Positions 6,081 through 30,952 of a stretch of 64,000 nucleotides of DNA are shown in pieces (positions within the stretch are counted from its first letter, which is position 1; each line of letters starts with the position of its first letter). Below the pieces are notes generated by a model. It was not told where the DNA came from. It ran no database searches and saw nothing but the letters and a program-made list of their open reading frames with translations. The DNA comes from Escherichia coli. GTDB taxonomy: Bacteria > Pseudomonadota > Gammaproteobacteria > Enterobacterales > Enterobacteriaceae. The stretch lies in assembly GCF_024502345.1 (NCBI RefSeq), contig NZ_JALDNN010000002.1; one strand, 5' to 3'. The position numbers and the translations under genes were made by a program.

Positions 6081-6082
6081 TA

Positions 6083-7580: not shown

Positions 7581-7584
7581 CACC

Positions 7585-8478: not shown

Positions 8479-8504
8479 AGCATATGATCGATATGTGCCT
8501 AAAT

Positions 8505-10143: not shown

Positions 10144-10574
10144 CAGTACATCTCCCTCGGGCGGTGGATGATATGCGTGACGACGCCAAAGATATCCAGC
10201 TCATCGGGGTCAGGATAAGTCGGCGACCAGGAGGCATTCATGGGCTGCAGCGTCAGTCGAGGCGTCAGCAGAAGCCGTTTAACCGTAAACTCCCCCTGTA
10301 CGCTGGCGACAACGATATCGCCGTGCCGCGGCTTTTCAGCACTGTCCACAACCAGCAGATCGCCATTGTACAGACTACCGTCCGCCATGCTGTCTCCGCT
10401 GGCACGCAGGTAGTACGTCGCGCTCGGATGCCGTATGCAGTAATCATGGAGATCCAGATCGGACTCGACATAGTCAGCGGCAGGGCTGGGAAAACCGCAG
10501 CTGGCCAGATCGGCAAACAATGGATGAGCCTGTGGCGGGTGTTCTTTCCCGGTGCTGAAAAGCTGTAGCTTCAT
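10143..10574 (-). CDS. umuD: UmuD (LexA-like self-cleaving peptidase S24)
   Basis: 143 aa from ATG at 10574 ([13 protein letters not shown]...), preceded by GGAGGA RBS; stop overlaps umuC start; the 270-aa track ORF is an upstream over-extension. Confidence 0.9.
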
Positions 10575-10597
10575 CTTTCCTCCTGATACTCTAATTT

Positions 10598-10617
10598 TAC
10601 TGGTTATGCATACAGTG
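10598..10617. promoter_or_regulatory. LexA (SOS) box TACTGGTTATGCATACAGTG
   Basis: CTG-N10-CAG core with one mismatch to consensus, about 25 bp upstream of umuD start. Confidence 0.7.
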
Positions 10618-12562
10618 TGCGCCGGGAGACCGGTAGAGATCAAGGGGTGAAAGTCCCCGACCATTGAAGGACCAGCAATCCACAAGGTCCCCGAGTCATG
10701 CGTTGCATACCGCGAGGTATGGGGCGAAGCGTTGACAGGGGTGTTGACAGGCCAGCCATTGAGCCACGAAATGTATATTAAATTACCGGGTGCCGACGTT
10801 GTACTGTTAACGGAAGGCAACATCATAGGGTGCGATACTGCGAGTGCCACATGGACCCGGCGGGGTCTGAGACCCTGGCATGTCAATACGATCTCTACGC
10901 GGGAACCGGGAGATCTCCCCTCTGACCATCTGCCAGTGTCGGAGATGGCCCGCACCGGGAAGACGAGGAGTCATAGCCGGTGATGTACGGAGAGGAGAAG
11001 TCGGACTCGCTCATAGTAGCGGCGAAGCAGGCGAACAACCCGAAAGGAGCGGAGTCAGTGGAGCGAAGGAGCGGGGCCAAGGGGAACGTGGAACAGCCAC
11101 ACATGCGCCGGACACAGAGCCGGGAAAGCATGTCACAGAGGCTGTCACGCGTGCGGGAAGCTGCGAAGCAGCGGAAGAAAGAACGGTTTACAGCATTGTT
11201 CCACCTGCTGACAGTCGAAGCACTGGAAGCCGCATTCCTCTCCCTGAGCAGGAAAGCGGCCGCCGGAGTGGATGGCATCAGGTGGATGGACTACGCCGGA
11301 AACATGAAGAACAACATAACAGATCTGCACCGGAGGCTACATCAGGGCAGCTACAGGGCGCAGCCCGGCAGGCGTCACTACATCCCAAAAGCGGATGGAA
11401 AACAACGCCCGCTCGGCATCGCCTCGCTGGAGGACAAGATCGTCCAGTATGCGCTGGTGAAAATCCTGAACGCAGTCTATGAAAACGACTTTATGGGGTT
11501 CTCATACGGGTTCAGACCCGGGCGAAGCCAGCACGATGCACTGGACGCACTGGCCACAGGGCTGGTACGCACTAACGTAAACTGGGTACTGGATGCCGAC
11601 ATCAGTCAGTTCTTCGACAGGGTGAGCCACGAATGGCTGATCAGGTTCACAGAGCATCGGATCGGCGACCGGAGCGTAATCAGGCTCATACGTAAGTGGC
11701 TCACAGCCGGGACGTTGGAGGAGGGTCAATGGCGAGCAACGGAGGAAGGCACCCCACAGGGTGCGGTCATCTCACCGCTGCTGGCAAACATATACCTCCA
11801 CTACGTCTTCGATCTGTGGGCGCATCAGTGGCGACGTCGCTATGCCACAGGCAATGTGGTAATGGTCAGATACGCCGATGACATCGTCATCGGGTTCGAC
11901 AAACGATACGATGCCCGGCGCTTCCGTATAGCCATGCAGCGCAGACTGAGGGAGTTCGGACTCACGGTTCACCCGGAGAAAACCCGTCTGATGGAGTTCG
12001 GCCGCTTCGCTGCCGAAAACCGTGCCATCAGGGGAAAAGGCAAACCAGAAACGTTCAACTTCCTCGGGTTCACGCACATCAGCGGGAAAGATCGCAACGG
12101 CAGGTTCATGCTGATACGAAAGACCCGCCGGGATCGGATGACGGCAACTCTGAAAGCCATCAAAGACGGTCTGCGAAGGCGCTGGCATTACTCAATCCCC
12201 GAACAGGGAAAATGGCTCAGGAGAGTGGTTCAGGGATACCTGAACTATCACTCGGTACCGGGCAACTTCCCCACCATGCAGAAGTTCAGGACACACGTAA
12301 CAAACCTCTGGCGCCGGGCGCTCAGGCGCAGGAGCCAGAAGGATGATACGACCTGGACGAAAGCAAACAAACTGGCAGCCGCATGGCTACCAAGGGTTCG
12401 GGTTCTTCATCCATGGCCTGTGGAGCGGTTCACCGCCAGACACCCGAGGCAGGAGCCCGGTGCGTAAATCGCGCACGCCGGGATCTGTGCGGGGGGTATC
12501 CGGTAACGGGTATCCCTACCGCGACATATTTAACAGCGTGACGATAATCCAGATCGCCTGCC
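10617..12562 (+). mobile_element. group II intron (bacterial, RT/maturase-encoding); 3' boundary approximate
   Basis: GTGCG at 10617-10621, about 360 bp structured leader, RT/maturase ORF, GNRA-loop hairpin near the 3' end; IS1 abuts at about 12563. Confidence 0.7.
10983..12467 (+). CDS. group II intron reverse transcriptase/maturase
   Basis: RT motifs incl. YADD (...MVRYADDIVIGF...), maturase domain, no endonuclease domain. Confidence 0.9.
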   Translation: MYGEEKSDSLIVAAKQANNPKGAESVERRSGAKGNVEQPHMRRTQSRESMSQRLSRVREAAKQRKKERFTALFHLLTVEALEAAFLSLSRKAAAGVDGIRWMDYAGNMKNNITDLHRRLHQGSYRAQPGRRHYIPKADGKQRPLGIASLEDKIVQYALVKILNAVYENDFMGFSYGFRPGRSQHDALDALATGLVRTNVNWVLDADISQFFDRVSHEWLIRFTEHRIGDRSVIRLIRKWLTAGTLEEGQWRATEEGTPQGAVISPLLANIYLHYVFDLWAHQWRRRYATGNVVMVRYADDIVIGFDKRYDARRFRIAMQRRLREFGLTVHPEKTRLMEFGRFAAENRAIRGKGKPETFNFLGFTHISGKDRNGRFMLIRKTRRDRMTATLKAIKDGLRRRWHYSIPEQGKWLRRVVQGYLNYHSVPGNFPTMQKFRTHVTNLWRRALRRRSQKDDTTWTKANKLAAAWLPRVRVLHPWPVERFTARHPRQEPGA

Positions 12563-12618
12563 GGATAATGGTGCCAACTTACTGATTTAGTGTACGATGG
12601 TGTCTTTGAGGTGCTCCA

Positions 12619-12894
12619 GTGGCTTCCATCTCCATCAGTTGTCCCTCCTGCTCAGCTACTGAAGGCGTGGTGCGTAACGGTAAAAGTACTGCCGGACATC
12701 AGCGCTATCTCTGCTCTCACTGCCGTAAAACATGGCAGCTACAGTTCACTTACACCGCCTCTCAGCCCGGTACGCACCAGAAAATCATTGATATGGCCAT
12801 GAATGGCGTTGGATGCCGGGCAACCGCCCGCATTATGGGCGTTGGCCTCAACACGATTTTACGTCACTTAAAAAACTCAGGCCGCAGTCGGTAA
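12619..12894 (+). CDS. insA: IS1 InsA
   Basis: [91 protein letters not shown]. Confidence 0.95.
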
Positions 12895-13316
12895 CCTCAC
12901 GCATACAACCGGGCAGTGACGTCATTGTCTGCGCGGAAATGGACGAACAGTGGGGCTACGTCGGGGCTAAATCACGTCAGCGCTGGTTATTTTACGCCTA
13001 TGGCAGGATGTGCAGGACGGTGGTGGCACGCGTCTTTGGTGAGCGTACTCTGGCCACGCTGGAGCGTCTTCCGGGCCTGCTGTCGGCCTTTGAGGTCGTG
13101 GTATGGATGACGGATGGCTGGCCGCTTTATGAATCCCGCCTGAAGGGAGAACTGCACGTTATCAGCAAGCGATATACGCAGCGAATTGAGCGGCATAACC
13201 AGAATCTGAGGCAGCATCTGGCAAGGCTGGGCAGGAAGTCACTGTCGTTCTCAAAATCGGTGGCGCTGCATGACAAAGTCATCGGGCATTATCTGAACAT
13301 AAAACACTATCAGTAA
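12813..13316 (+). CDS. insB: IS1 InsB (expressed as InsAB' by -1 frameshift)
   Basis: 167-aa ORF overlapping insA 3' end in -1 frame. Confidence 0.9.
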
Positions 13317-13331
13317 GTTGGAGTCATTACC

Positions 13332-13633
13332 AACCAGTTCACCACCTACTCGCTCCGCGATTGTGGCAGTCTTCGAAATCCCCGGACGATCCGCCTTTAT
13401 GAAAGTCTTGCTCAATTCAAATCTTCAGGCTTATGGGTTACTACTCATGCTTGGTTAAATGACCGTTTCGTCTTACCGGAATCCCAGCAGAAGAACTTGG
13501 CAGAGTTGAAACGATCTTTCCTTGATCCTGCACTCAAGCAGATAAATGAGAAAACACCTTTACTTGCTAAGTATAGTATTGATGATTCAGGAAAATTTCT
13601 GTTCTCAATAATTGATAAGCAAAATCCCGTCTG
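13332..13633 (+). pseudogene. 3' fragment of a replication-initiator-like gene, 5'-truncated by IS1
   Basis: Frame open from the IS1 end; ...TTYSLRDCGSLRNPRTIRLYESLAQF... resembles the Rep_3 motif; ends at stop 13631-13633. Confidence 0.4.
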
Positions 13634-13683
13634 ACATAAATCAGCACACATGAGCCTGTCATTTGACAAATTTTTGTCATGAA

Positions 13684-14183
13684 GATGGGCGGATTTCCAC
13701 ACAGCACCGGCGCCCGGTAAGGTGGGCGGATTCCCACACGGCACCGGCGCCCGGTAAGGTGGGCGGATTCCCACACGGCACCGGCGCCCGGTAAGGTGGG
13801 CGGATTCCCACACGGCACCGGCGCCCGGCAAGATGGGCGGATTTCCACACAGCACCGGCGCCCGGTAAGGTGGGCGGATTCCCACACGGCACCGGCGCCC
13901 GGTAAGGTGGGCGGATTCCCACACGGCACCGGCGCCCCGCAAGATGGGCGGATTTCCACACAGCACCGGCGCCCGGTAAGGTGGGCGGATTTCCACACAG
14001 CACCGGCGCGCGGCAAGGTGGGCGGATTTCCACACGGCACCGGCGCCCGGCAAGGTGGGCGGATTTCCACACAGCACCGGCGCCCGGCAAGGTGGGCGGA
14101 TTCCCACACGGCACCGGCGCGCGGCAAGGTGGGCGGATTCCCACACGGCACCGGCGCCCGGCAAGGCGGGCCGATTCCCATAT
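13684..14183. repeat. tandem array of about 13.5 copies of a 37-bp GC-rich repeat
   Basis: Contiguous units g[ga]tgggcggatt[tc]ccacac[ag]gcaccggcgc[cg]cgg[tc]aag with two alternating variants. Confidence 0.95.
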
Positions 14184-14406
14184 CGACATGTATGTAGCTT
14201 GTGTTATCTGTGGATTGTGCAGCTCAGCGGGTCGCTGGTCGTATGGCGGAGTGTCCCCCGTAACCGGCCGCGTGCGGCCGCTAACGCGCAGTACGGCGCC
14301 GCGTCCCGCAGGCGGGCCGCCGTTCCCGCGCGCAGCACTGCGCACCCCCGTGGGGGACGTGCGGCAGCTGCGTGGCGGTGACCGGCACGAACCGCATGTT
14401 AGGTCG

Positions 14407-14709
14407 AGTGACGGCTTCACAAATAGCTTCAGCGTCTGCAGCATCATGCTTATTGGTTTTAACATAGGGTTTGACGAACTGAGGGGCCATCAGTTTGACA
14501 TTATGGCCCATCGATATCAGTTTATTGGCCCAGAAATGAGCAGATGCACAGGCCTCCATGCCGATCAAACAGGGTGGGATGTTGGCAAAAAAGGAGGCCA
14601 TTTGTGCCCGTCTGAGTTGTTTGTTGAACAACCGTTTTCCGTGCTCGTCAACCCCATGGATCTGGAAAACGTTTTTTGCCAAATCGATTCCAATAGTTTT
14701 AACGTTCAT
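14407..14709 (-). pseudogene. IS110-family transposase N-terminal fragment
   Basis: MNVKTIGIDLAKNVFQIHGVDEHGK...; sequence then degenerates into GC-rich non-homologous frame. Confidence 0.7.
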
Positions 14710-14914
14710 GATAGCAGCGCTCCGTTCAATGAGTGACGATTTATCGTCCCACTGTGGCACAAGAGATGGGAGGCGACCATTCCATTAACAAAGCCGGTAT
14801 TTAGCCGTTGATGCGTCAATACCGTAGGTAAATTTAGCAACTAGAAACCATACCATTATTGGCGGCAAAGTAATTGCAAATAAAAATGCTAAGCCTCTTT
14901 CTCTATCGTCCATT

Positions 14915-15331
14915 TCAGCGCTCCTTTTTTGGTTCCCAGACTTTATAGCCGTTACGTTCAACCTCTGCTTTTGCCGCTTTGGTTTTACCCGGTTCTGCTA
15001 TCGAACGTAGGAGGATCAGCGTTTCAATAGCGAGTGATTCATGCAACATCATCTGTCCTGCCGGTGGGAATGTTACGCCAGATAGCGTTTCGGTTATTGC
15101 CTTCAGCTCATCGCGCAGTGAGCCAAAATCCGCATCTGAAGCACGGTCAAAAAGGTAATCCAGTTTGCGATTTACGTCGCTCAGCTGGTTGGTAACTATT
15201 TTCAACCCGGACTCCAGATCACCTGGGCCAGCTTCAAGGCAGCGCCGCAGATACTCTGACCGATTACCACCTGAAACCAGGTCTATATAGGCCAAAAGTT
15301 CATCTGATACTTTTGCGGTTATTGTTGGCAT
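14915..15331 (-). CDS. hypothetical protein with N-terminal ribbon-helix-helix-like segment
   Basis: 138 aa; MPTITAKVSDELLAYIDLV...RSEYLRRCLE pattern suggests RHH DNA binding; function unknown. Confidence 0.5.
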   Translation of the reverse strand: MPTITAKVSDELLAYIDLVSGGNRSEYLRRCLEAGPGDLESGLKIVTNQLSDVNRKLDYLFDRASDADFGSLRDELKAITETLSGVTFPPAGQMMLHESLAIETLILLRSIAEPGKTKAAKAEVERNGYKVWEPKKER

Positions 15332-15654
15332 TCAGTCCTCACTTTGTGCATTTTTTAAACGAAAAAAGGGTGTCTAATACGGTGAAATCATAGTATTACC
15401 AAAGTAATAAATAAAAAATTCTTTAAATCAGTAAGTTAGATTAGATTTGTAATACCTGGGTAATACCGCAGTATGGCTAAATTTGGTTTTTTTCTTTTAA
15501 ATCAGTGAGATAGCGTGATTTATCACGCTGCGTTAGGTGTATAGCAGGTTAAGGGATAAAAAATCATCTTTTTTTGGTAGGGCGATCTCCGTAGGTTAAG
15601 GGTCATTTGGCTAAAAAGCGTCCTATTCTTTGATGGTCATGCTTGCATGACCAT

Positions 15655-15830
15655 CTGAGCAACCAAAAACTACAGATAAACTACAGATAAACTACAAAAA
15701 ACGTTTTGCCTTAGTGTTGGGAGACTACAAATAGACTACAATAAAACTACAAATAAACTACAAATAAACTACAAAAAACGTGACAGACTACAAATAGACT
15801 ACAATAAAACTACAGATAAACTACAAAACT
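15655..15830. repeat. iteron-like array of about 14 direct repeats (ACTACA[AG]ATA[AG]A, 11-bp periodicity)
   Basis: aactacagataaactacagataaactacaaaaaacg...gactacaaatagactacaataaaactacaaataaactacaaataaa... Confidence 0.9.
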
Positions 15831-15886
15831 CGATTGACCCCTTCTTACGAGTGTTGTAGAGTCATTTTCATACAACGGAGGGGGTT

Positions 15887-16273
15887 ATGAATAAACCAGC
15901 AGATCTGAAACCCCGCAACTTATCGGCTGCTGTCAGATTGCGCCTAAATGAAATCGAGAACTGGCTGGACAGAGGGCTAACGCGGCATGAAATTGCTGAA
16001 ATCCTCGACAGCGAATACAGCTTTTCGGTAACAGCCAAAGGGCTTGAGATGGCACTGTATAGAACGCGGCAAAACCGAAAAAATGTATTGCACAATACAC
16101 ATGATAAGAGTAGCGCGAAGGGTGCAGCGGAAAGTGTATTGCACAATACACAACCGTCTGAGCCTGAAGCGCAGGAAAGTAAAAAAGCAGAGAGTCCCGG
16201 CATTATTGATAAAGAATTCTTCAAGAAAATCGGTGAGAATTTCGACCCTAAGAAGTTCAACAAAAAATTCTGA
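15887..16273 (+). CDS. hypothetical DNA-binding protein (candidate iteron-binding adaptor)
   Basis: 128 aa; GGGGG RBS; helix-turn-helix-like ...GLTRHEIAEIL...; directly downstream of the iteron array. Confidence 0.5.
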   Translation: MNKPADLKPRNLSAAVRLRLNEIENWLDRGLTRHEIAEILDSEYSFSVTAKGLEMALYRTRQNRKNVLHNTHDKSSAKGAAESVLHNTQPSEPEAQESKKAESPGIIDKEFFKKIGENFDPKKFNKKF

Positions 16274-16281
16274 GGTGATTT

Positions 16282-16468
16282 ATGAAAGTAGCGGTAATTA
16301 ATTACAGTGGCAGTGTTCGTAAAACCTTAATTTCATCTTACCTGTTAGCCCCGCGCCTGACTGGTGCAAAGTTCTATGCGGTAGAGACTATCAACCAGTC
16401 TGCTTCCGATCTGGGTATTGAAAATGTGACCAGTTTTAAAGGTGACGACTTCTCACGTTTGATTGAGG
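16282..16468 (+). pseudogene. N-terminal fragment of a possible actin-like (ParM-type) ATPase, 3'-truncated by IS1
   Basis: MKVAVINYSGSVRKTLISS... resembles the ParM N-terminus (MLVFIDDGSTNIKLQW); frame runs into IS1 at 16469. Confidence 0.35.
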
Positions 16469-17007
16469 GGTAATGACTCCAACTTACTGGTAGTGTTTTA
16501 TGTTCAGATAATGTCCAATGACTTTGTCATGCAGTTCTCCCTTCAGGCGTGATTCATAAAGCGGCCAGTCATCCGTCATCCATACCACGACCTCAAAGGC
16601 CGACAGCAGGCCCGGAAGACGCTCCAGCGTGGCCAACGTGCGTTCACCGAATACGTGCGCCACAACCGTCCTCCGTATCCTGTCATACGCGTAAAACAAC
16701 CAGCGCTGGCGTGATTTAGCGCCGACGTAACCCCACTGTTCGTCTATTTCCGCGCAAACAATGACGTCACTGCCCGGTTGTATGCGTGAGTTTACCGACT
16801 GCGGCCTGAGAGGCGGTGTAAGTGAACTGTAGCTGCCATGTTTTACGGCAGTGAGAGCAGAGATAGCGCTGATGTCCGGCAGTACTTTTACCGTTACGCA
16901 CCACGCCTTCAGTAGCTGAGCAGGAGGGACAAGTGATGGAGATGGAAGCCACTGGAGCACCTCAAAACCACCATCATACACTAAATCAGCAAGTTGGTAG
17001 CATTACC
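16469..17007 (-). mobile_element. IS1 copy b, internally deleted (539 bp)
   Basis: Both IS1 ends present; insA and insB carry internal deletions relative to copy a. Confidence 0.85.
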
Positions 17008-17279
17008 CAGAACTGGACAGAATAGGCTGTATGTCTAACTTCTGGCCACAGATATAATCGAGCCAGCAGTGCTCGCCGCAGCCGAGCGACAGGGCGAAGC
17101 CCCGAGTGAGCGAGGAAGCACCATGGAACAGTACTCATAAATTCTGCATACGCTCAATGCCTGCAAAATCACCTCCCATAGGGGTTATCCACTTATCCAC
17201 GGGGATATTTTTATAAGATCTTTTTAAATAGTTGTTAGATTTTTATTTTTAGAATGCCCACAGGCCTTTATCCATGCGG

Positions 17280-17400
17280 GTTCCAGAGAGGGATCTGTGA
17301 CAAAACGCCCTTTCAGTGTGACAAATCACCCTCAAATAGCCGCCATTTCTGTGACAAGTTGCCCTTAACCCTGTGACAAATTGCCCTCAGGAAGCGTTGC
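17280..17400. promoter_or_regulatory. F-type (RepFIA-like) iterons, orphaned: four TGTGACAA[AT]T.GCCCT repeats
   Basis: ctgtgacaaaacgccc / gtgtgacaaatcaccc / ctgtgacaagttgccc / ctgtgacaaattgccctcag at about 22-bp spacing; no rep gene adjacent. Confidence 0.65.
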
Positions 17401-17529: not shown

Positions 17530-18446
17530 TGAATCGCCACGGATAATCTAGACACTTCCGAGCCGTTGATAATACTGGTTTTCATATTCTGTCGGTGACA
17601 TCTGTTCGCTAGAACCATGCCGACGCTTACTGTTATAAAACATTTCGATGTAATCAAAAATATCACTGCGGGCTTCTTCCCGCGTTCCGTAGATCTTTTT
17701 CTTTATCCGTTCACGTTTCAACAACTGGAAAAAACTTTCTGCAACCGCATTATCATGGCAGTTACCGCGACGGCTCATGCTACCCTCCAGGCCGTGTGAT
17801 TTCAGGAACGACTGCCACTCATGGCTTGTGTACTGACTGCCCTGATCCGAATGAACCAGCACCTGTTTTTCGGGATTACGCCGCCATACAGCCATCAGCA
17901 GTGCGTTCAGGACAATGTCCTTTGTCATCCGGGATTGCATGGACCAGCCGATAATTTTGCGTGAGAACAGATCAACAACAACGGCAAGATACAGCCAGCC
18001 TTCGTGGGTCCTGATGTAGGTTATGTCCGTTACCCAACGCTCATCAGGAGCATCCGGATTGAACTGTCGCTGGAGCCTGTTGGGTGACACGATACTGGCC
18101 TCGCCTTTACGTGCCCGCGGGCTTCGGTATCCGACCTGAGCCTTTATTCCGACACGTTTCATCAGTCTCCAGACTCTGTTTACTCCGCACTGTTGCCCGC
18201 TGTCACGCAGATCCAGATGGATTTTGCGATAACCATAGACGCATCCCGATTCCAGCCAGAACTGTTTAATCTGTCCTGTCAGTCTCAGGTCTGCCTGATG
18301 GCGTTGTGAATGCGGCTGCTGAAGCCAGGCGTAAAAACCACTGGGATGAACATCCAGCACCCGACAGAGCAGGCGAACAGGCCAGCAACAGGAGTTGTCA
18401 CGGATAAAGGCGTACCTCAGTCGGACAGCTTTGCGAAGTACGCCGC
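17530..18446 (-). mobile_element. IS3-family element fragment X (right IR plus orfB), truncated by IS30
   Basis: Terminal tgaatcgccacgg... IR at 17530; orfB with DDE motifs; orfA missing. Confidence 0.8.
17548..18360 (-). CDS. IS3-family transposase OrfB (DDE integrase domain), partial
   Basis: 270 aa; ...WVTDITYIRTHEGWLYLAVVVDLFSRKIIGW...HSDQGSQYTS... Confidence 0.85.
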   Translation of the reverse strand: MLDVHPSGFYAWLQQPHSQRHQADLRLTGQIKQFWLESGCVYGYRKIHLDLRDSGQQCGVNRVWRLMKRVGIKAQVGYRSPRARKGEASIVSPNRLQRQFNPDAPDERWVTDITYIRTHEGWLYLAVVVDLFSRKIIGWSMQSRMTKDIVLNALLMAVWRRNPEKQVLVHSDQGSQYTSHEWQSFLKSHGLEGSMSRRGNCHDNAVAESFFQLLKRERIKKKIYGTREEARSDIFDYIEMFYNSKRRHGSSEQMSPTEYENQYYQRLGSV

Positions 18447-20583
<2,137 letters not shown>

Positions 20584-21070
20584 AATTAATGGGCGGCGCT
20601 TTTTTGAAATGATTGCGCACTACCAAGCGCTGATTAACAGCCTAACCGGCGAGGCATTAACCAAACAGTCCAGCATTCCTTTATCAGACCGTGCACAGCA
20701 GATTCTTAACGCGCTCAATAGCTATAGGGCACGGCATCGAACGGGCGATCGTTATATCCGCATGCTGTTTGACTGTGCGCTGCTGTATTACTTCGATAAA
20801 TTTGGCAAAGAGCAACTATCAGAAGCGATCGAAAAGTTTTTCATCTGGGCCTATAGCTGCCGCTTAACCAGCCACGCTGTGTATATCGAAACCATGGATA
20901 ACCACGCCCGCAACAGCAAACTGTTTAAATTAATCCAGTCCGCCATTAGCCCAAAACAAGTACTGGCGCTGCCTTTAAAAACCCTCACCCCCGCTGATCT
21001 CAAGGCAAGTAAGATGGGCGATTTGGTTAAGCTATTCGAAGGAATGAAATACTATGTCGAATCCAAATAA
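20584..21070 (+). pseudogene. 3' portion of an unknown gene, 5'-truncated by the IS3-family fragment
   Basis: Frame open upstream to the IS boundary; no family recognised. Confidence 0.5.
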
Positions 21071-23084
21071 GATAACGAGCTTTTCCATTAGGCAGCTGTT
21101 AGCAAATCACGCCTCCTATCAGATCCCTATGTATCAGCGTAACTATGCGTGGGAAAAAGGCGAAATTGATCAGCTGATTCAGGATGTTGTTGATTATCAA
21201 GTCCAAAAAAAGCCTTACTACATCGGCAGCTTAGTGGTGTATCCACGGGATAATCAGCTATTTGAAGTGATTGACGGCCAGCAACGCTTTACCACGCTCA
21301 CGCTAATTGCTTTATGTTTGAAGCACTTCAGCATGTTGGCTGAAAAAGAAGGGACAACGTCTGTTAATAAAGTTGACATGAGTTGGTATCAAACGCCTAA
21401 TTTATGCTTTGAAAGCCGCGCTAACTCAACCCTCACCCTTGAAAAAATAACAGCCTTTAGCGCCTCTACTGCTAAGCATTTGTCACTAGATCCAGCCGAT
21501 ATTAATCAGTGCAACAGCGCTATTTTAAATGGCTTTAACTTGGTGCAGCAGGCGTTATCTGAGCTTGCTAAACAGCATGACCTACATCAGTTTTGTGAGT
21601 ACTTATTTGATTGGGTAAAAATCACCCGCGTCCCCGTTCCCCACGACACTGATTTAACCCATTACTTTGAGGCGATGAATAATCGCGGGGAACAGCTAGA
21701 AAAACACGAAGTGCTAAAAGCCAGAATGCTCTCTGTGCTGCAAGATGCCAGCCACCAACACCCTGAGAATAAAAGCGCGCAGGAAGTGCTCAATAAAGTG
21801 TGGAATGCCTGCGCCAATATGGAGCGTTATGTGCAGTTTGGCTTTAACCCCATCGAGCGCCAGCAGATCTTTGGCAATGAGTGGCAAAAATTTACCGCTA
21901 ACAGCTTTACTGAGCTTCATCACGCGCTAATAGCCCCTGAAAACAGAGCAGCCAACACCACAGTCGACACTCATAGTGATGAGCCAGCCGCCAAATCACT
22001 GGCTGAAATGTTGAACACACCTTATACCGATAAACAGGCAGAAACAGATAAAAATCAACCATCGCCTGAACGCTTTAACAGCGTGATTAATTTTTCTAAC
22101 TTTTTATTGCAGGTCTTAAGGGTTTACAGCCAAAAAGACATTTCTTTGGACGATAAGCAGTTAATTGATCAGTTCGAAACGCATATTTTGCACGCAGACG
22201 AGGCAGCAGAAAAAGTTAAAGCGTTTGTGTTTGCCTTATTAAAATCCAAATACCTATTTGATCACTACGTGATAAAACGCGATGCGACGGCTCAGGACAA
22301 GTGGGGCATCAAGCAATTAAAACGCTATGAGCGCAATAGCCAAAGCTACGTCAATACCTTTGCCCAAAACGATCAGCCTGATACCACTCACTCGCAATTA
22401 AATCAGCGCATTGTTTTATTACTAAGCGCCTTTCATGTCTCTACGCCCACCATGAACTACAAGCACTGGTTAACCGGCGTTTTGCATATCCTGCATCAAC
22501 TGCACGCCAAGCAACTCGATGCAGACAACTATTTAAAGGCACTCGAAAAGCTCGCCAGAAGCTTTATCTATGGGCGTTATTTGGCTAAAACAGCGGCTGA
22601 TTATTACACACTGATTTTTGATAACCCGAAGGGCTATCAACCCTTAGCGGACACGTGTTTTTTACGGTGTCGCTTGCGCTATGGTTCGATTAAAAACAAC
22701 TTTGTATTTAACTATTTAGATTATTTGCTGTGGTGCACCACCCAAGATAAGGACCTGGTGTATCGTGAGTTTGAATTTAGTTTTAGAAGCTCGGTCGAGC
22801 ATTTCTACCCACAAGATCCCTACTCTGGCGAACCATTAGAGGATGGGCCTTTGCATAGTTTTGGTAACCTATGCCTAATTAGCCACAGCAAAAACTCTAA
22901 GCTCAGCAACTACCAACCCACGGCTAAAAAAGAGCACTTTCAAGCAGCCAGCACCCAAGGCAAAATCGACTCACTCAAGCTGTATGAAATGACTCGGGTT
23001 AAAGTATGGGATGCAGATGCTATCCACAAGCATGAAACCCAAATGCTGGGATTGTTTATTAAGGATTCTGAGGGAGAAAAATGA
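21054..23084 (+). CDS. GmrSD-like type IV restriction / DUF262-DUF1524 protein
   Basis: 676 aa; N-terminal DUF262 signature (...VIDGQQRFTTLTLI...), C-terminal DUF1524-like His-Me region (...SVEHFYPQDP...). Confidence 0.75.
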   Translation: MSNPNKITSFSIRQLLANHASYQIPMYQRNYAWEKGEIDQLIQDVVDYQVQKKPYYIGSLVVYPRDNQLFEVIDGQQRFTTLTLIALCLKHFSMLAEKEGTTSVNKVDMSWYQTPNLCFESRANSTLTLEKITAFSASTAKHLSLDPADINQCNSAILNGFNLVQQALSELAKQHDLHQFCEYLFDWVKITRVPVPHDTDLTHYFEAMNNRGEQLEKHEVLKARMLSVLQDASHQHPENKSAQEVLNKVWNACANMERYVQFGFNPIERQQIFGNEWQKFTANSFTELHHALIAPENRAANTTVDTHSDEPAAKSLAEMLNTPYTDKQAETDKNQPSPERFNSVINFSNFLLQVLRVYSQKDISLDDKQLIDQFETHILHADEAAEKVKAFVFALLKSKYLFDHYVIKRDATAQDKWGIKQLKRYERNSQSYVNTFAQNDQPDTTHSQLNQRIVLLLSAFHVSTPTMNYKHWLTGVLHILHQLHAKQLDADNYLKALEKLARSFIYGRYLAKTAADYYTLIFDNPKGYQPLADTCFLRCRLRYGSIKNNFVFNYLDYLLWCTTQDKDLVYREFEFSFRSSVEHFYPQDPYSGEPLEDGPLHSFGNLCLISHSKNSKLSNYQPTAKKEHFQAASTQGKIDSLKLYEMTRVKVWDADAIHKHETQMLGLFIKDSEGEK

Positions 23085-23377
23085 GTAACGTCGGCCAGCG
23101 TGAACGCATGACCCAACAGCGCATTGTTGAGCTGTTTCAAACGGATTTAGGCTACCGCTATTTAGGTAACTGGGAATACCGCGATAACAATAAAAACATA
23201 GAAGTTGAGCTACTAACGAGCTGGCTGAAAAAGCGCGGCATAAGCGAGGCGCTGATTAATCGCGTGATTCGTCAGCTAGACAGCGCAGCGGCGCTGGGCG
23301 AAGGTAAAAAGCTCTATTACGCCAACAAAGAGGTTTATCGCCTGCTGCGTTACGGCGTGAAAGATAAAGAAGGTGCT
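23081..23377 (+). pseudogene. hsdR: type I restriction enzyme HsdR, N-terminal part (gene split by IS30)
   Basis: MSNVGQRERMTQQRIVELFQ...; frame continues in phase across the IS30 insertion to 24599. Confidence 0.85.
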
Positions 23378-24598
23378 TGTAGATTCAATCTGTCAATGCA
23401 ACACCCCTTTCAATTATCTCTTTCGGTGTTTTGAACTTCAGTGTCTTTCTCGGTCTGTTGTTTAGCTGAGCAGCAACCAGATCTAGTTCATGTTGAGTAT
23501 ATTGGGCAAGACATGTCTTTTTAGGAAAGTACTGCCGAATTAGCCCATTTGTGTTCTCATTTGTTCCCCGCTGCCAAGGACTCTGAGGATCGCAGAAGTA
23601 AACTTTAACGCCGGTGCTGACAGTAAATTCTAGATGTCTGGCCAGTTCCATTCCTCTGTCCCATGTCAGTGATTTTCTGAGTTCTGACGGTAAACTCAGG
23701 AATTTGTCGGTAAGAGCCTGATTTACTGAGACAGAATCTTTGCCCCTGAGTCTAAGGATGATCGTATAACGTGATTTTCGGTCTACAAGTGTGGCTATAT
23801 GAGAGTTTTTTGTACCTGAGACTAAATCGCCCTCCCAATGCCCCAGAGAGCGTCTGTTATCGATATTTCGGGAACGTTCGTGAATTGGTGTTCCGTTCAC
23901 TATGTTAATCGTACCTCTTTCGCCTTTGCGGGTATGACGCCTGCCATGGCGAAGGCTATGCGACCGTCGCAGATGCTGTATATTCAGGTGGTGTAGCGCT
24001 TCACGGCTACGAAAGTACAGCGTTTTATAAATTGTCTCAGGTGATATTCGCAGCGTTTTTTGACGTGGTTTTGTTCGCCTTAACCATCCTGATATTTGCT
24101 CTGGAGACCATTTCATCTCCAGCTTTTCCAGAACAAGCTTTCGCAATGGTAAATTTTGATCCAGTAAGCACGGTTTTGGCCTTTTCGCCATTCTGTTGGC
24201 TCGGTTATTAGCATCAACAGCTTTGTAATAGCGTCTGCCCCGATTACGCTGAACTTCACGTGAGATCGTCGAAGGACTGCGATTCAGCGCAGTAGCTATC
24301 GCACGAATGCTCATTTTGGCTGACAAACCAGCTCGTATCTCCTCGCGCTCAGACAGTGTCAGGTGAGCTACAGCCCGCTTACGCTCATGGGGTTTTATGC
24401 CGCCAGTATCCCTTAACATAGTGAAGATCGTTCCGGGTTTTGAACCCAGGATATTCGCTATTTCACTGAAGCCTGTTCCGTTCTTCCATAGTTCAAAAAC
24501 AGAGGCTTTTTCCTCTGCTGTAAATGTTCGTCTCATTCAAAAAACCTCCGCAACCCCATGTTTTCACATAACTGTTGCGTTGACCAATTGAATCTACA
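23378..24598 (-). mobile_element. IS30 copy 2 (1221 bp) inserted in hsdR with 2-bp target duplication CT
   Basis: IS30 IRs at both ends; ct at 23376-23377 and 24599-24600. Confidence 0.95.
23385..24536 (-). CDS. IS30 transposase
   Basis: 383-aa ORF identical in the track to copy 1. Confidence 0.95.
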   Translation of the reverse strand: MRRTFTAEEKASVFELWKNGTGFSEIANILGSKPGTIFTMLRDTGGIKPHERKRAVAHLTLSEREEIRAGLSAKMSIRAIATALNRSPSTISREVQRNRGRRYYKAVDANNRANRMAKRPKPCLLDQNLPLRKLVLEKLEMKWSPEQISGWLRRTKPRQKTLRISPETIYKTLYFRSREALHHLNIQHLRRSHSLRHGRRHTRKGERGTINIVNGTPIHERSRNIDNRRSLGHWEGDLVSGTKNSHIATLVDRKSRYTIILRLRGKDSVSVNQALTDKFLSLPSELRKSLTWDRGMELARHLEFTVSTGVKVYFCDPQSPWQRGTNENTNGLIRQYFPKKTCLAQYTQHELDLVAAQLNNRPRKTLKFKTPKEIIERGVALTD

Positions 24599-27396
24599 CT
24601 GGCCATCTTAATGAAACCGTGTGGCTGATTGACTGGAAAAATCCAGAAGCAAACGATTTTGCCATTGCCGAAGAAGTCTCTATCAAGGGTGAAAACAAAA
24701 AATGCCCAGACATAGTGCTGTATGTCAATGGTATCGCTCTAGGTGTGATTGAGCTGAAACGCTCTTCGGTGTCTGTCTCTGAGGGTATTCGCCAGAACCT
24801 CGATAACCAAAAGAAAGATTTTATCCGTAACTTCTTCACCACCATGCAATTGGTGATGGCGGGTAACGACACGCAAGGCTTGCGTTACGGCACGATTGAA
24901 ACCCCGGAGAAGTATTATCTTGAATGGAAAGAAGAGATAGAGAACGGGTATAGCCATAAGCTCGACTTTCACCTGAGCCGCGTATGCAATAAAGCGCGTT
25001 TTTTACAGATCATCCACGATTTTATTGTTTTCGATGCGGGTATTAAAAAGACCTGTCGTCACAATCAGTTCTTTGGTATTGAAGCGGCAAAACGCCATAT
25101 CGCAAGGCGTGAAGGCGGCATTATTTGGCATACGCAAGGTTCTGGCAAAAGCCTCACTATGGTGTGGCTGGCCAAATGGATACGTGAAAATGTCAAAGAC
25201 GCCCGTGTATTGATCGTGACCGATCGTACCGAGCTGGATGAGCAGATAGAAAAAGTATTCACCGGTGTTGAGGAAGATATTTATCGCACCAAAAGCGGTG
25301 CCGATTTGGTGGCGACGCTCAATCAGCCCAACCCTTGGTTGGTATGCTCTTTAGTCCATAAATTTGGTCGGCAGTCTGATTCGGAAAACGATACCGCGAC
25401 GGATGAGTTTATTGCCGAGTTAAAGAAATCCCTACCATCGGACTTTAAAGCCAAAGGTGACCTATTCGTATTTGTTGATGAATGCCACCGTACTCAATCG
25501 GGCAAGTTGCACGAAGCGATGAAGTCCATTCTGCCAGAAGCCATGTTTGTCGGCTTCACCGGCACCCCCTTGATGAAGAAAGACAAGAAAAAATCGGTTG
25601 AGGTATTTGGCCCTTACATTCACACCTATAAGTTTGATGAAGCTGTGGCCGATGGCGTTGTGCTCGATTTACGCTACGAAGCACGAGACATCGACCAAAA
25701 TGTCACGTCGCAGAAAAAGGTCGATGAATGGTTTGAAGCCAAAACTCGCGGCTTATCTCGATTAGCGAAAACCCAGTTGAAACAGAAATGGGGCACCATG
25801 CAAAAGGTGCTGTCCAGTAAATCGCGTTTGCAGCAGATTGTGAATGATATCTTGCTGGATATGGACACTAAGCCACGCCTGATGGATGGCTACGGCAATG
25901 CCATGTTGGTCTGCTCTAGTGTCTATCAAGCTTGTAAAGCTTATGAAATGTTCAGCCAAACAGATTTAGCCGGCAAGGTGGCTATTGTCACCAGTTTTCA
26001 GCCGACCGCTGCGAGCATTAAAGGGGAAGAAACCGGTGAAGGCTTAACGGAAAAGCTCTTTAAGTACGATATTTACCGCAAAATGCTTGCGGATTACTTC
26101 GAGCAACCGGAAGACAAGGCCGCTAACCGAGTTGAAGAGTTTGAAAAAGAAGTTAAAAAACAATTTATTGATGAGCCAGGGCAAATGCGCTTGCTCATCG
26201 TGGTCGATAAGTTGCTGACTGGCTTCGACGCCCCTTCGGCTACCTATTTGTATATCGACAAACAGATGGCTGATCACAATCTGTTTCAGGCCATTTGCCG
26301 CGTGAACCGCTTGGATGGCGATGATAAAGAATACGGTTACATCATTGACTACAAAGATCTGTTCCGCTCGTTGGATAAAGCGATTTCTGATTATACTCAA
26401 GGCGCATTTGATGGTTATGACAAGGAAGACGTTGCAGGGCTGCTGAAAGATCGTTTAGAGCAAGCCAAGCTCGATTTGGATAATGCGCTGGAAATGGTGC
26501 GCGCCTTGTGTGAGCCGGTAAAAGCGCCACGCAACACGGAAGACTACATTTATTATTTTTGTGGTAAGTCAGGTCTGAACCAAGACGAGCTCACCGAGAA
26601 AGAAGCACTGCGTTTAACGCTTTATCAGAACGTTGCCAAACTGCTGCGTGCGTTCGCCAATATCGCCAATGAAATGCCTGATGCAGGCTATTCTGCGCAA
26701 GATGTAGACTCGATAAGAACAGAAGTGGCTCATTTTGAAAAAGTCCGTGACGAAGTAAAACTGGCCAGTGGCGATTTGGTAGAAATGAAACGCTTTGAGC
26801 CTGCGATGCGCCATTTGTTAGATATGTATATTCGTGCGGATGACAGCGAAGTACTGATGGATTTTGAAGAGCTGGGGCTTATTGAGCTCATTGTCGAAAA
26901 AGGCGCTGATGCCGTGGAGGCTTTGCCTGATAGTATTCGCAAGAATCAGGAAGCCATGGCCGAAACCATCGAAAATAACGTGCGTAAAACCATCGTTGAT
27001 GAAAACCCGGTTAACCCCAAGTATTACGAGCAAATGTCGGTGTTATTGGATGAGCTGATTGAGCTTCGTCGCCAAAAAGCGATTGAATATCAAGAGTATT
27101 TGGAAAAAATCCGCGAGCTGTCTCGTAAGGTTATACGTCCGGAGCAGACAGCGGCTAACTATCCGCCATCGATGGACTCTAATCCAAAACGCGCGTTTTA
27201 CGATAATTTTGGTCAAGATGAATTGCTGGCTACCAAAATAGATAGTGCCATTCGTTATACCAAAAAAGCGGATTGGGTCGGAGATCGCTTTAAGGAGCGA
27301 GAAATTGCCAATGCGGTGCGAGAAGAAACGACGGGGTATGAGGTGGATATTCAGGGTGTAATGGAATTGGCAAAAGCGCAAAAAGAGTACCATTGA
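24599..27396 (+). pseudogene. hsdR: HsdR C-terminal part (nuclease and SF2 helicase domains)
   Basis: PD-(D/E)xK-like ...PDIVLYVNGIALGVIELKRS..., Walker A ...HTQGSGKSLT..., DECH box ...FVFVDECHRTQ... Confidence 0.85.
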
Positions 27397-28109
27397 TGCC
27401 TAAGGTAGAAATTGGTTCTATTGCGATGCAGTTAAATCGTAAGGCAATTAAAAACCTTCATATCAGCGTGTTGCCACCTGATGGGCGTGTGCGTGTTTCT
27501 GCTCCTGAATCTATGACAGAAACCGCAATCCGTATGGCAGTGATCAGCCGCATTCCTTGGATCAAGAAACAGCAGAGTGTTTTTGCCAAACAACCTCGCC
27601 AATCTGATCGAGCAATGGTTAGCGGTGAATGTCATTACCTGTGGGGCAGGCGTTATCGTCTGAATCTTATCGAGCGTTCCGGAAAGCATGAAATCAAGCT
27701 AGGTCGTGGTCGATTGCATTTATATGTCAATCCCGCAACAACGCTTGAGAACAAGGCACTGGTACTGAACTCATATTATCGAGATGCACTTAAAACGCGA
27801 ATCGCTGAGTTATTGCCTGTTTGGGAAGATAAGATCGGCGTTAAAGCTGTAGATTGGGGAATTAAAAAGATGAAAACCAAGTGGGGCAGCTGCAATATTC
27901 AGGCAAAGCGCATTTGGCTAAATTTAGAGCTTGCTAAAAAGCCACCGGAGTGTTTGGAGTACATCCTAGTGCATGAATTGGTGCACTTGCTTGAGCGTAA
28001 TCACAATGAACGCTTCAAGGGGTATATGGACAAGCTACTTCCCGATTGGCGAGAGCGCAGAGATTTGTTGAAGCGGATGCCCTTGGCGCACAACGATTGG
28101 GTGTACTAG
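27393..28109 (+). CDS. DUF45/M48-family zinc metallopeptidase (YgjP-like), commonly linked to hsdR
   Basis: 238 aa; HExxH motif ...ILVHELVHLLERNH...; 4-bp overlap with hsdR stop. Confidence 0.75.
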   Translation: MMPKVEIGSIAMQLNRKAIKNLHISVLPPDGRVRVSAPESMTETAIRMAVISRIPWIKKQQSVFAKQPRQSDRAMVSGECHYLWGRRYRLNLIERSGKHEIKLGRGRLHLYVNPATTLENKALVLNSYYRDALKTRIAELLPVWEDKIGVKAVDWGIKKMKTKWGSCNIQAKRIWLNLELAKKPPECLEYILVHELVHLLERNHNERFKGYMDKLLPDWRERRDLLKRMPLAHNDWVY

Positions 28110-28452
28110 GAAAATTATGCAGAGTTTGCATGGTTAGCCTGATTATGTATGTGGCGCGTAATTTGAGATAAACTTGATAGTAAAAGCGGGAAATGGATTT
28201 CATTTCTCCGATATTTTGCTCAGGTGCTGTCGCTAAAAGTGTCAAGATTCTATCTTTACGCTTGGCGGCCAATACTCCCGCAGTACCTACCCAGAAAATA
28301 GCCAATATTGGGATCAACTTAACAGTTTTGGCTTTGTTTATTATAAAAACCAGCACTTTCAATTAGTTGAATGGTTTATTCGCTAGTTTATGTGAACTAC
28401 CATTTTGAGAGGGCTGAAAGTTGCTCGATTACTTAAAAATAACTTTACCTAA

Positions 28453-29646
<1,194 letters not shown>

Positions 29647-29739
29647 CTAATTGGTGTAAAAAAATGGGCGCAACAAAGCGCCCCAACAATAGAGTTTCAA
29701 ATTAATAAAAAGGTAATAAATAACATGAAGTTAAATTGA

Positions 29740-29839: not shown

Positions 29840-30952
29840 TTAGAATTGGTAGGTCATACCAACAGCAACGATGTTGTCGGTTGCAACGCCAGATTTTTTG
29901 GTAAAATCACTTTCATCGATCAGGTTGATCTTATAGTCAACGAAAGTGGACATATTCTTGTTAAAGTAATAAGTCGCGCCCACGTCGATGTATTCAACCA
30001 GATCCTGGTTACCGAACGCACCAATATTTTCACCGCGAGAGTGTAGGTAAGCGATGGACGGACGCAGGCCGAAATCAAACTGGTATTGAGCAACGGCTTC
30101 AAAGTTTTTCGCCTTGTTCGCGATATGGTCATCACCGAAGACTGTCATATTCTGAGTTTCAGAATAAGTTGTAGCCAGGTAAATGTTGTTTGCATCATAT
30201 TTCAGGCCCGTAGCCCATACTTCAGCAGTTTTACCAGAGGCATTCAGAGGGCTGGCTTTAGCATAGGATACCTGTCCATCAGTACGGTCAGATTTTGCAT
30301 AGGTTGCAGCAACGCCAAATCCTTCATAATCGTAAGTAGCTGACAGACCAAAGCCATCACCATTAGATTCAACTTCGTCGCGGCCTTTCCAGTTGTTCGC
30401 TTTTGCAGCACTATCATTTTTACCTTGATACTGCAAAGCAAAGTTCAGACCATCAACCAAGCCGAAGAAATTATTGTTACGATAGGTCGCGACGCCAGTA
30501 GCACGCTGGGTCATAAATACATCAGTCTGAGTCCAGGTATCTCCACCAAACTCCGGCAGCACGTCAGTCCAAGCGCCAACATCATAAGCTACACCGTAGT
30601 TGCGACCATAGTCGAGCGAACCATAATCGCCAAAGCGAAGCCCTGCAAACGCAAGACGAGTTTTATCTTTATCAGAACCTTCAGTTTCAGAACGGTTACC
30701 TTTAAATTCGTACTCCCACTGACCAAAACCGGTTAACTGGTCATTAATCTGAGTTTCACCTTTGAAACCCATACGAGCATAAGTTTTATCCCCGTCATCA
30801 CTAGCTGAAGAAGAGAAGTAATGCTTTGCATTAACTTTGCCGTACAGATCCAGTTTGTTACCGTCTTTGTTATAGATTTCTGCCGCTTGTGCAGACATTG
30901 CCATCAGGACTGATGCTGCAACCGCAGAAAGTGCCACTGTGATTTTTTTCAT
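29840..30952 (-). CDS. general outer-membrane porin (OmpC/OmpF/PhoE family)
   Basis: 370 aa; signal peptide [23 protein letters not shown]; [17 protein letters not shown]... and C-terminal ...VAVGMTYQF. Confidence 0.9.

What the first reader, a model, noticed from the sequence alone, without database searches (positions are those of the whole stretch)
20584..23084. Intact GmrSD-like DUF262/DUF1524 gene upstream of the broken hsdR, preceded by a 5'-truncated unknown gene
The 676-aa protein has an N-terminal DGQQR motif and a C-terminal His-Me-like ...VEHFYPQDP... region, the GmrSD/BrxU-type architecture associated with type IV restriction of modified DNA. It appears intact while the neighbouring hsdR is broken. 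The gene fragment immediately upstream (open to the IS boundary) is unrecognised and may be the remnant of a partner gene.
Basis: partly seen in the sequence, partly recalled or inferred. Interest (0 to 1): 0.5.

Follow-up and report, generated by a model that had tools for sequence, protein, structure and literature searches.

The report
Orphaned half of TgvAB restriction system
The intact gene is the nuclease half (TgvB-like) of a published two-protein restriction system for sugar-modified phage DNA that sits inside a type I restriction operon; insertion sequences have here removed most of its required partner and the surrounding operon, so it is probably a silent leftover.

Summary
Window 21054-23084 (+) is an uninterrupted 676-codon gene with GmrSD_N/DUF262 and GmrSD_C/DUF1524 domains, and all catalytic motifs are present. 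The fragment at 20584-21070 is the last 161 codons of a 472-aa DUF262+DUF7834 protein encoded directly upstream in intact E. coli loci.

The pair is a TgvAB-type system, the type I-embedded GmrSD-like type IV restriction system of Vibrio cholerae VPI-2. Homology to TgvB (VC1766) runs end to end (24% identity, hhalign probability 100%). The partner shares the Pfam architecture of TgvA. Near-identical E. coli proteins are already listed as TgvAB homologues in the published survey.

In V. cholerae both proteins are required for defence. In 77 of 80 species-level loci the TgvB-like gene has a full-length TgvA-like gene directly upstream.

In the window an IS3-family element has replaced hsdM, hsdS and the first 311 codons of tgvA. 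IS30 splits hsdR. No sigma-70-like promoter precedes tgvB.

Most likely reading: a recently orphaned, non-functional remnant of a known system, on a plasmid-like replicon. Novelty is low. The untested exceptions are autonomous activity of TgvB alone, or a different modification specificity in this divergent subfamily.

The parts
20584..21070 (+). tgvA-like remnant. It holds codons 312-472 of a 472-aa DUF262+DUF7834 protein, i.e. only the C-terminal part of DUF7834. The DUF262 domain with the YQR, DGQQR and FxxxN motifs is deleted. It carries a private G359R substitution.
   Evidence: The stretch is 99.9% identical to L001 12001-12487. The intact gene is annotated WP_000074284.1. Pfam on the intact protein gives GmrSD_N at 18-203 and DUF7834 at 215-450. 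The remnant begins at residue 312.
21054..23084 (+). tgvB-like gene, 676 aa, uninterrupted. It has DUF262 (DGQQR at nt 21273-21287), a helical linker, and a DUF1524 His-Me nuclease (His583 at nt 22800-22802, Asn605 at 22866-22868, Asn614 at 22893-22895). It overlaps the tgvA remnant by 17 nt and hsdR by 4 nt. It carries a private D18N substitution.
   Evidence: Supported. Homology to V. cholerae TgvB is end to end.
23081..23377 (+). hsdR 5' piece (first 99 codons), cut by IS30.
23378..24598 (-). IS30, 1221 bp (transposase at 23385..24536), with a 2-bp CT target duplication. It is 100% identical to a second, inverted copy at 18447-19667.
   Evidence: The same insertion is present in plasmids NZ_CP061756.1 and NZ_CP034659.1.
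24599..27396 (+). hsdR 3' piece (remainder of the 1030-aa type I R subunit).
27396..28109 (+). YgjP-like/M48 (SprT-like) metallopeptidase gene. It is the conserved last gene of this type I cassette and is intact here. Homology to the island ends at 28408, followed by IS5.
19668..20583 (+). Right-hand part of an IS3-family element (orfB at 19736..20575). Its end replaces hsdM, hsdS and codons 1-311 of tgvA. The orfB stop is in frame with the tgvA remnant, three codons upstream of it.
   Evidence: closest named element is ISEc52-like at about 94%. The junction is not found in any other record.

Best explanation
The locus is the decayed remainder of a type I restriction-modification operon with an embedded TgvAB-type type IV restriction system. 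The intact operon reads HTH - hsdM - hsdS - tgvA-like - tgvB-like - hsdR - YgjP/M48.

From the V. cholerae experiments, the intact system needs both TgvA (DUF262 + DUF7834) and TgvB (DUF262 + helical linker + DUF1524 His-Me nuclease). Both DUF262 DGQQR motifs, thought to drive NTP hydrolysis, are required. The TgvB His-Me site is the effector. Targets are phages with glucosylated or arabinosylated 5-hydroxymethylcytosine. That the two proteins form a complex is the authors' inference.

Shown in this window: only tgvB survives as an open gene. An IS3-family element replaced everything upstream of tgvA codon 312, and IS30 split hsdR.

Inferred: without TgvA's DUF262 domain and without the operon promoter, tgvB does not confer defence. 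It is a recent, not yet degraded orphan.
For: Architecture and synteny: intact E. coli chromosomal and plasmid loci carry hsdM-hsdS-DUF262/DUF7834(472 aa)-DUF262/DUF1524(676-677 aa)-hsdR-M48 with overlapping reading frames.

Homology to the characterised system:
- The window protein aligns with the VC1766-like protein P0121 over residues 10-668 vs 12-656 (24% identity, E 3e-37).
- The profile-profile comparison gives probability 100%, E 2e-49, over 604 columns.
- H583 and N614 align with TgvB H571 and N602, whose alanine mutants abolish defence (PMC11411939).
- The E. coli partner matches the first ~400 residues of VC1767 over about 380 residues (E 4e-21), whereas cross-matches cover only DUF262.
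- VC1767 has the same GmrSD_N + DUF7834 Pfam architecture.
- Near-identical E. coli proteins QEP81665.1 and QEP81666.1 are hit 334 in Table S5 of PMC11411939.

Partner requirement:
- Neither tgvA nor tgvB alone protects, from the native or the pBAD promoter (PMC11014532 and PMC11411939).
- DGQQR mutants of either protein are null.
- In 80 species-level genomes with a TgvB-like gene, 77 have a full-length TgvA-like gene directly upstream on the same strand, 2 are cut by the contig end, and 1 has a 5'-truncated tgvA.

Decay in the window:
- No hsdM, hsdS, HTH gene or tgvA 5' part occurs anywhere in the 64 kb.
- No sigma-70-like promoter lies between the IS end and the tgvB start.
- Sibling plasmids share the same IS30 insertion in hsdR but keep tgvA, hsdS and hsdM, so the tgvA truncation probably came later.
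- Both nucleotide differences from those alleles are non-synonymous. One is D18N, at a site that is Asp in 114 of 119 homologues.
Against: - The experimentally tested TgvAB is only 24-25% identical to this pair, so the partner requirement is extrapolated across a deep split.
- Single-chain GmrSD-family enzymes with the same domain order (Eco94GmrSD, BrxU, HEC-06) work alone.
- All catalytic residues of the window protein are intact and the gene has a plausible ribosome-binding site.
- Read-through from the co-oriented IS3-family orfB could transcribe it.
- The promoter scan is a crude consensus search.
- Two substitutions are far too few to show relaxed selection.
Confidence: 0.8

Rival explanations
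1. The surviving protein works alone as a single-chain GmrSD-type type IV restriction enzyme, transcribed by read-through from the IS. On this reading the strain still restricts modified phage DNA.
For: The protein has the complete DUF262-linker-DUF1524 architecture with all motifs. Its fold matches DndI and SspE strongly and BrxU weakly. Single-protein relatives such as HEC-06 and BrxU defend on their own (bioRxiv 2024.01.29.577857). The IS3-family orfB lies on the same strand directly upstream.
Against: TgvB alone gave no protection in two independent studies, even when over-expressed. No solo TgvB-like gene was seen in 80 species-level loci. PADLOC HEC-06 and SspE models match only the N-terminal ~250 residues, so the protein is not a member of the single-chain subfamilies. 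By sequence, solved GmrSD-family structures match only weakly and mostly over DUF262.
Confidence: 0.1
2. A 153-aa product of the remnant (ATG at 20609, C-terminal part of DUF7834) is still made, binds TgvB, and keeps partial or altered activity or regulation.
For: An ATG-initiated 153-codon ORF remains and still overlaps tgvB as in the intact operon. The retained region is the best-predicted helical part of the TgvA-like model, with pLDDT about 90 or higher over residues 350-440.
Against: No Shine-Dalgarno-like sequence precedes ATG 20609. TgvA DGQQR point mutants are already null, and the remnant lacks the whole DUF262 domain.
Confidence: 0.05
3. The pair is not functionally TgvAB-like. This divergent subfamily recognises a different DNA modification, or acts together with the type I enzyme it is embedded in.
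For: It shares only 24-25% identity with VC1766/VC1767. The flanking HsdR belongs to a different type I family from VC1765, judged by reading the supplement sequence rather than by any computed comparison. The related two-gene system GrwAB has a wider range that includes 7-deazaguanine (PMC12137116).
Against: 26 of 80 homologous pairs occur with no type I genes nearby, so the pair is a self-contained module. TgvAB works without HsdR nuclease activity. This rival changes the specificity only, not the conclusion that the window copy lacks its partner.
Confidence: 0.15

Closest known systems
TgvAB (VC1767/VC1766), the type I-embedded GmrSD-like type IV restriction system of Vibrio cholerae VPI-2 (Vizzarro et al. 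2024, PMC11411939; Gomez & Waters 2024, PMC11014532)
   Same: The gene order is the same: a DUF262+DUF7834 gene, then an overlapping DUF262+DUF1524 gene. Both are embedded between hsdS and hsdR. Homology to both proteins is end to end, and the mutated catalytic residues are conserved (H571/N602 = H583/N614). Near-identical E. coli proteins are already listed as hits by those authors.
   Different: Identity is only 24-25%. The surrounding type I system is apparently of another family and carries extra HTH and YgjP/M48 genes. The reading frames overlap by 17 nt here and 8 nt in Vibrio. In this window TgvA is reduced to its last 161 codons and hsdM/hsdS are absent.
Single-chain GmrSD family: Eco94GmrSD/EcoCTGmrSD, BrxU (PDB 7P9K), HEC-06
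   Same: They share the DUF262 NTPase/sensor, helical linker and DUF1524 His-Me nuclease order, with DGQQR and (D/E)HxxP motifs.
   Different: Those enzymes act alone. Sequence similarity is confined to the DUF262 domain (PADLOC HEC-06 match over residues 6-251 only). BrxU is only a weak Foldseek match (E 0.25). The window protein's relatives always come with a TgvA-like partner.
SspE and DndI (PDB 6JIV/7DRS, 9JFL), phosphorothioate-sensing GmrSD-like nucleases
   Same: They are the best structural matches for both the TgvB-like and the TgvA-like models (Foldseek probability 1.0). They are also the best sequence matches among solved structures.
   Different: They depend on host phosphorothioation gene clusters, which were not looked for in the window. 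Sequence matches are weak (E 3e-7 to 8e-3) and mostly N-terminal.
GrwAB of WASA-lineage V. cholerae (PMC12137116)
   Same: It is a two-gene GmrSD-like system in which both proteins carry DUF262 and both are needed.
   Different: The gene order is reversed (nuclease-bearing protein first). The paper states that GrwB's C-terminal domains are unrelated to TgvA. The partner here has the TgvA-type DUF7834 domain.

Membership tests
TgvAB two-protein type IV restriction system | TgvB component: N-terminal DUF262 with QR, DGQQR and FxxxN motifs, plus C-terminal DUF1524 with the H...N...N His-Me motif. | tested here: met
   Pfam gives GmrSD_N at E 1e-30 and GmrSD_C at E 1e-10. Q28-R29, D74-R78, F205/N209, H583, N605 and N614 are all present. 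H583 and N614 align with TgvB H571 and N602.
TgvAB two-protein type IV restriction system | Full-length sequence homology to VC1766 (TgvB), not just shared terminal domains. | tested here: met
   BLASTP gives 24% identity over residues 10-668, E 3e-37. hhalign gives probability 100%, E 1.9e-49, over 604 columns that include the linker.
TgvAB two-protein type IV restriction system | A TgvA component (DUF262 without a nuclease domain) encoded directly upstream, overlapping tgvB. | tested here: not met
   In this window only codons 312-472 remain and the DUF262 domain is deleted. The feature is met in the intact E. coli relatives, where the 472-aa partner has GmrSD_N + DUF7834 like VC1767. It is also met in 77 of 80 other species. 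The window therefore holds a broken member, not a complete one.
TgvAB two-protein type IV restriction system | Both proteins required for defence; restriction of glucosyl- or arabinosyl-5hmC phages. | not testable with these tools
   This is known only for the V. cholerae system. It needs plaque assays with the E. coli pair and with tgvB alone.
TgvAB two-protein type IV restriction system | Embedding between hsdS and hsdR of a type I R-M operon (frequent, but not obligatory). | tested here: met
   This is the ancestral arrangement in E. coli and holds in 34 of 80 loci. In the window only the hsdR side remains.
Single-chain GmrSD / BrxU / HEC-06 | A stand-alone gene with no DUF262 partner, and a full-length match to the family models. 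| tested here: not met
   PADLOC HEC-06 models match only residues 6-251. A partner gene is present in 79-80 of 80 relatives. No match to any NCBIfam model.
SspE (Ssp phosphorothioate-dependent nuclease) | Full-length match to SspE and association with sspABCD. | tested here: not met
   The PADLOC SspE hits are short N-terminal stretches. The PDB SspE match has E 0.0076. The presence of sspABCD genes was not examined.

The most novel reading that the evidence does not exclude
The enterobacterial TgvAB-like subfamily, only 24% identical to the tested Vibrio system, may differ in a meaningful way. Its TgvB might keep autonomous nuclease activity once TgvA is lost, or it might recognise a different DNA hypermodification. 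In that case this orphan gene would still shape which phages and plasmids the host accepts.
Probability: 0.1. Interest if true: 0.4.

Novelty: already known. Interest (0 to 1): 0.15.

Why it matters
The main value is for annotation. Genes labelled 'GmrSD restriction endonuclease domain-containing protein' or 'DUF262 domain-containing protein' next to hsdR can be named TgvB and TgvA. A lone intact TgvB should not be counted as an active type IV system by defence-system callers. The locus also records stepwise IS-driven loss of a defence island on a plasmid: probably IS30 into hsdR first, then loss of hsdM, hsdS and 5' tgvA. It gives a natural 'TgvB-only' allele that could be used to test whether TgvA is needed in the enterobacterial subfamily.

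Tried and rejected
- NCBIfam has no model for either protein.
- The PADLOC best hits (HEC-06, 'Orf5', SspE) cover only the DUF262 domain, so I did not file the gene under them. I did not work out what PADLOC's 'Orf5' family is.
- No solved TgvA or TgvB structure exists in the PDB copy.
- The V. cholerae homologues P0021 and P0072, at 49-51% identity, turned out not to be VPI-2 TgvB. They belong to the same subfamily as the window gene, one embedded in a type I operon and one stand-alone.
- The true VC1766 and VC1767 sequences had to be taken from Table S3 of PMC11411939, where they are cut at about 400 residues. A second protein search then gave the full-length VC1766-like protein.
- I searched for the IS::tgvA' junction in 72,556 plasmids and 5,426 E. 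coli genomes and found no record with it.
- I checked whether the missing operon half had been moved elsewhere in the window by recombination between the two inverted IS30 copies. It had not.
- The AlphaFold model of the 676-aa protein is of moderate quality (pLDDT 75) and is poor around the His-Me strands. I used it only for family-level fold matching.
- From memory the upstream IS resembled IS911. The tools only support 'IS3 family, ISEc52-like at about 94%', so I report that.

Full report
**1. What is in the sequence**

Window 21054..23084 (+) is an uninterrupted 676-codon ORF. A GAAGGAA Shine-Dalgarno-like sequence lies 8-9 nt before the ATG. Pfam assigns GmrSD_N (DUF262, PF03235) to residues 12-225 (E 1e-30) and GmrSD_C (DUF1524, PF07510) to residues 553-665 (E 1e-10). 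DGQQR is at residues 74-78 and the EHFYP motif has His583.

In an alignment with 25 homologues the window protein keeps every invariant motif residue: Y27-Q28-R29, D74-R78, F205/N209, E582-H583, P586, N605, N614 and N619. Neither is met.

**2. The neighbours, from uninterrupted relatives**

The 2.5-kb stretch occurs at 98-99.9% identity in 14 of 5,426 complete E. coli genomes, on chromosomes and on plasmids.

In strains WEM25 and GYB01 the intact locus reads: HTH-like (79 aa) - hsdM (806 aa) - hsdS - DUF262 protein (472 aa, WP_000074284.1) - DUF262/GmrSD protein (676-677 aa) - hsdR (1030 aa) - M48/YgjP-like peptidase (237 aa). The reading frames overlap. The locus lies beside three tyrosine recombinase genes, in the ssb to yjcB/soxS region.

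The window aligns to WEM25 in only two blocks. Block 20584-23377 matches at 99.93% and block 24599-28408 at 99.9%. From this:
- The fragment upstream of the 676-aa gene is codons 312-472 of the 472-aa partner.
- hsdR is split by a 1221-bp IS30 with a 2-bp CT target duplication.
- Everything upstream of 20584 (the HTH gene, hsdM, hsdS and tgvA codons 1-311) is replaced by the right end of an IS3-family element.
- None of the missing genes is found elsewhere in the 64 kb.

The intact partner has GmrSD_N (18-203) plus DUF7834 (215-450). The remnant keeps only the C-terminal part of DUF7834 and has lost the whole DUF262 domain with its YQR, DGQQR and FxxxN motifs.

**3. Identification**

The literature search found the matching published system, TgvAB. 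[quoted passage not shown] TgvA (VC1767) carries DUF262 only. TgvB (VC1766) carries DUF262 + DUF1524. The two genes overlap and lie between hsdS and hsdR (PMC11411939, PMC11014532).

I tested membership directly:
- The window protein aligns with the full-length VC1766-like protein P0121 from residue 10 to 668 (24% identity, E 3e-37). H583 and N614 align with TgvB H571 and N602, the residues whose alanine substitutions abolish defence.
- A profile-profile comparison of the two subfamilies gives probability 100%, E 1.9e-49, over 604 columns that include the helical linker.
- The E. coli 472-aa partner matches the first ~400 residues of VC1767 over about 380 residues (E 4e-21). Cross-comparisons (A against B) match only the ~100-residue DUF262 core.
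- VC1767 has the same GmrSD_N + DUF7834 architecture.
- The authors' own survey lists near-identical E. coli and Salmonella proteins (QEP81665.1/QEP81666.1, hit 334; QHN43831.1/QHN43830.1, hit 375) as TgvB/TgvA homologues in Table S5.

By contrast, PADLOC models of the single-chain relatives (HEC-06, SspE) match only the N-terminal ~250 residues. NCBIfam has no model. Solved GmrSD-family structures match only weakly by sequence.

The AlphaFold models have pLDDT 75 for the TgvB-like protein and 84 for the TgvA-like protein. They do place both proteins in the GmrSD fold family. Top Foldseek hits are DndI, SspE and, weakly, BrxU for the TgvB-like model, and SspE for the TgvA-like model.

**4. How it works, and whether it works here**

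Shown experimentally for V. cholerae TgvAB:
- It gives at least 1,000-fold protection against Tevenvirinae with glucosylated or arabinosylated 5hmC.
- T2 and T4 escape by losing glucosylation.
- Protection does not depend on HsdR nuclease activity.
- Neither gene alone protects, from the native or the pBAD promoter.
- DGQQR mutants of either protein are null, as are H571A and N602A in TgvB.

The authors infer that the two proteins form a complex.

I added comparative evidence for the subfamily that contains the window gene. One scan of one genome per species returned 80 loci:
- 77 have a full-length TgvA-like gene directly upstream on the same strand, with a median gap of 12 nt.
- 2 are cut by a contig end.
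- 1 (Komagataeibacter, L037) has a 5'-truncated tgvA.
- 34 are embedded in the same type I family, and 26 stand alone with no type I genes nearby.

I found no naturally solo TgvB-like gene. The pair is therefore a self-contained, apparently obligate module.

In the window the required partner is gone and the operon promoter region is gone. A consensus scan finds no sigma-70-like promoter between the IS end and the tgvB start. The IS3-family orfB is co-oriented, and its stop codon lies three in-frame codons before the remnant. Read-through transcription is therefore possible, but no fusion protein is expected. The remaining 153-codon ORF (ATG 20609) has no visible ribosome-binding site.

My best explanation (confidence about 0.8) is that tgvB is a recently orphaned, non-functional remnant.

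**5. History of the locus**

The flanks of the window match plasmid backbones: RepB, ParA, a group II intron and a sucrose operon with ISKpn-type elements.

Two E. coli plasmids, NZ_CP061756.1 and NZ_CP034659.1, carry the same cassette with the same IS30 insertion in hsdR. Both still have tgvA, hsdS and at least most of hsdM. The probable order of events is IS30 into hsdR first, then loss of the upstream half.

The IS::tgvA' junction occurs in none of 72,556 plasmids or 5,426 E. coli genomes.

Against those sibling alleles the 2.8-kb stretch has two private changes, and both are non-synonymous. One is G359R in the remnant. The other is D18N in TgvB, at a site that is Asp in 114 of 119 homologues. 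This is compatible with relaxed constraint, but two changes are too few to prove it.

**6. Rivals**

(a) TgvB acts alone like Eco94GmrSD, BrxU or HEC-06. All motifs are intact, but the Vibrio data and the strict gene pairing argue against it (about 0.1).

(b) The 153-aa remnant still supports TgvB. This is unlikely, because point mutants in TgvA's DUF262 are already null (about 0.05).

(c) This divergent subfamily has another specificity or another relationship to the type I enzyme. This is possible at 24% identity, but it does not change the status of the window copy (about 0.15).

**7. Verdict**

The system is already described, and the E. coli homologues are already listed in the published survey. 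What is new here is only that this copy is broken. Interest is low.

The residual novelty lies in the untested possibility that the enterobacterial TgvB can work without TgvA, or recognises a different modification.

Noticed in passing
window 18447-19667 and 23378-24598: Two 100% identical 1221-bp IS30 copies in inverted orientation bracket a 3.7-kb segment holding the IS3-family piece, the tgvA remnant, tgvB and the hsdR 5' end. The segment is still collinear with hsdR 3', so no net inversion has occurred. Copy 1 sits between two truncated IS3-family elements (orfB at 17548-18360 on the minus strand and at 19736-20575 on the plus strand), which suggests IS-mediated deletions.
   Followed up: partly
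window 1-17400 and 29650-54000: The flanks match enterobacterial plasmid backbones at 96-99.7% identity: RepB initiator, ParA, Y-family polymerase, a group II intron, mer genes, and a sucrose PTS/porin operon with ISKpn26/28/38-type elements. The window is probably from a large IS-rich plasmid, not a chromosome.
   Followed up: partly
window 27396-28109; L001 17590-18303: A YgjP-like/M48 (SprT-like) metallopeptidase gene follows hsdR, and a 79-aa HTH_73 gene precedes hsdM in this type I family. The peptidase gene is conserved after hsdR in essentially all embedded loci surveyed. Its role in the cassette was not examined.
   Followed up: no
L007 (CALJDJ010000001.1): A contig binned as an 'uncultured Collinsella sp.' MAG carries the complete cassette, with all encoded proteins 100% identical to the E. 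coli WEM25 proteins. This is almost certainly a mis-binned Enterobacteriaceae contig.
   Followed up: no
L037 8217-11016 (Komagataeibacter melomenusus): This is an independent natural case of a full-length tgvB-like gene preceded by a tgvA-like gene lacking its first ~218 codons. It was the only such case among the 80 loci.
   Followed up: partly
L001 1-4768; L002 264-5505 and 18764-23998: In E. coli chromosomes the type I/TgvAB cassette lies next to a trio of tyrosine recombinase genes plus a small ORF, at the ssb to yjcB/soxS site. In strain GYB01 a second recombinase trio follows, carrying DRT type 3 (drt3a/drt3b). This suggests tandem recombinase-trio elements serving as carriers of defence cargo.
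   Followed up: no
window 28409-29650: Homology to the defence island ends at 28408. An IS5-type element follows (transposase at 28598-29614, minus strand), then a porin gene at 29840-30952 (minus strand), so the right-hand island boundary has also been remodelled by an IS.
   Followed up: no
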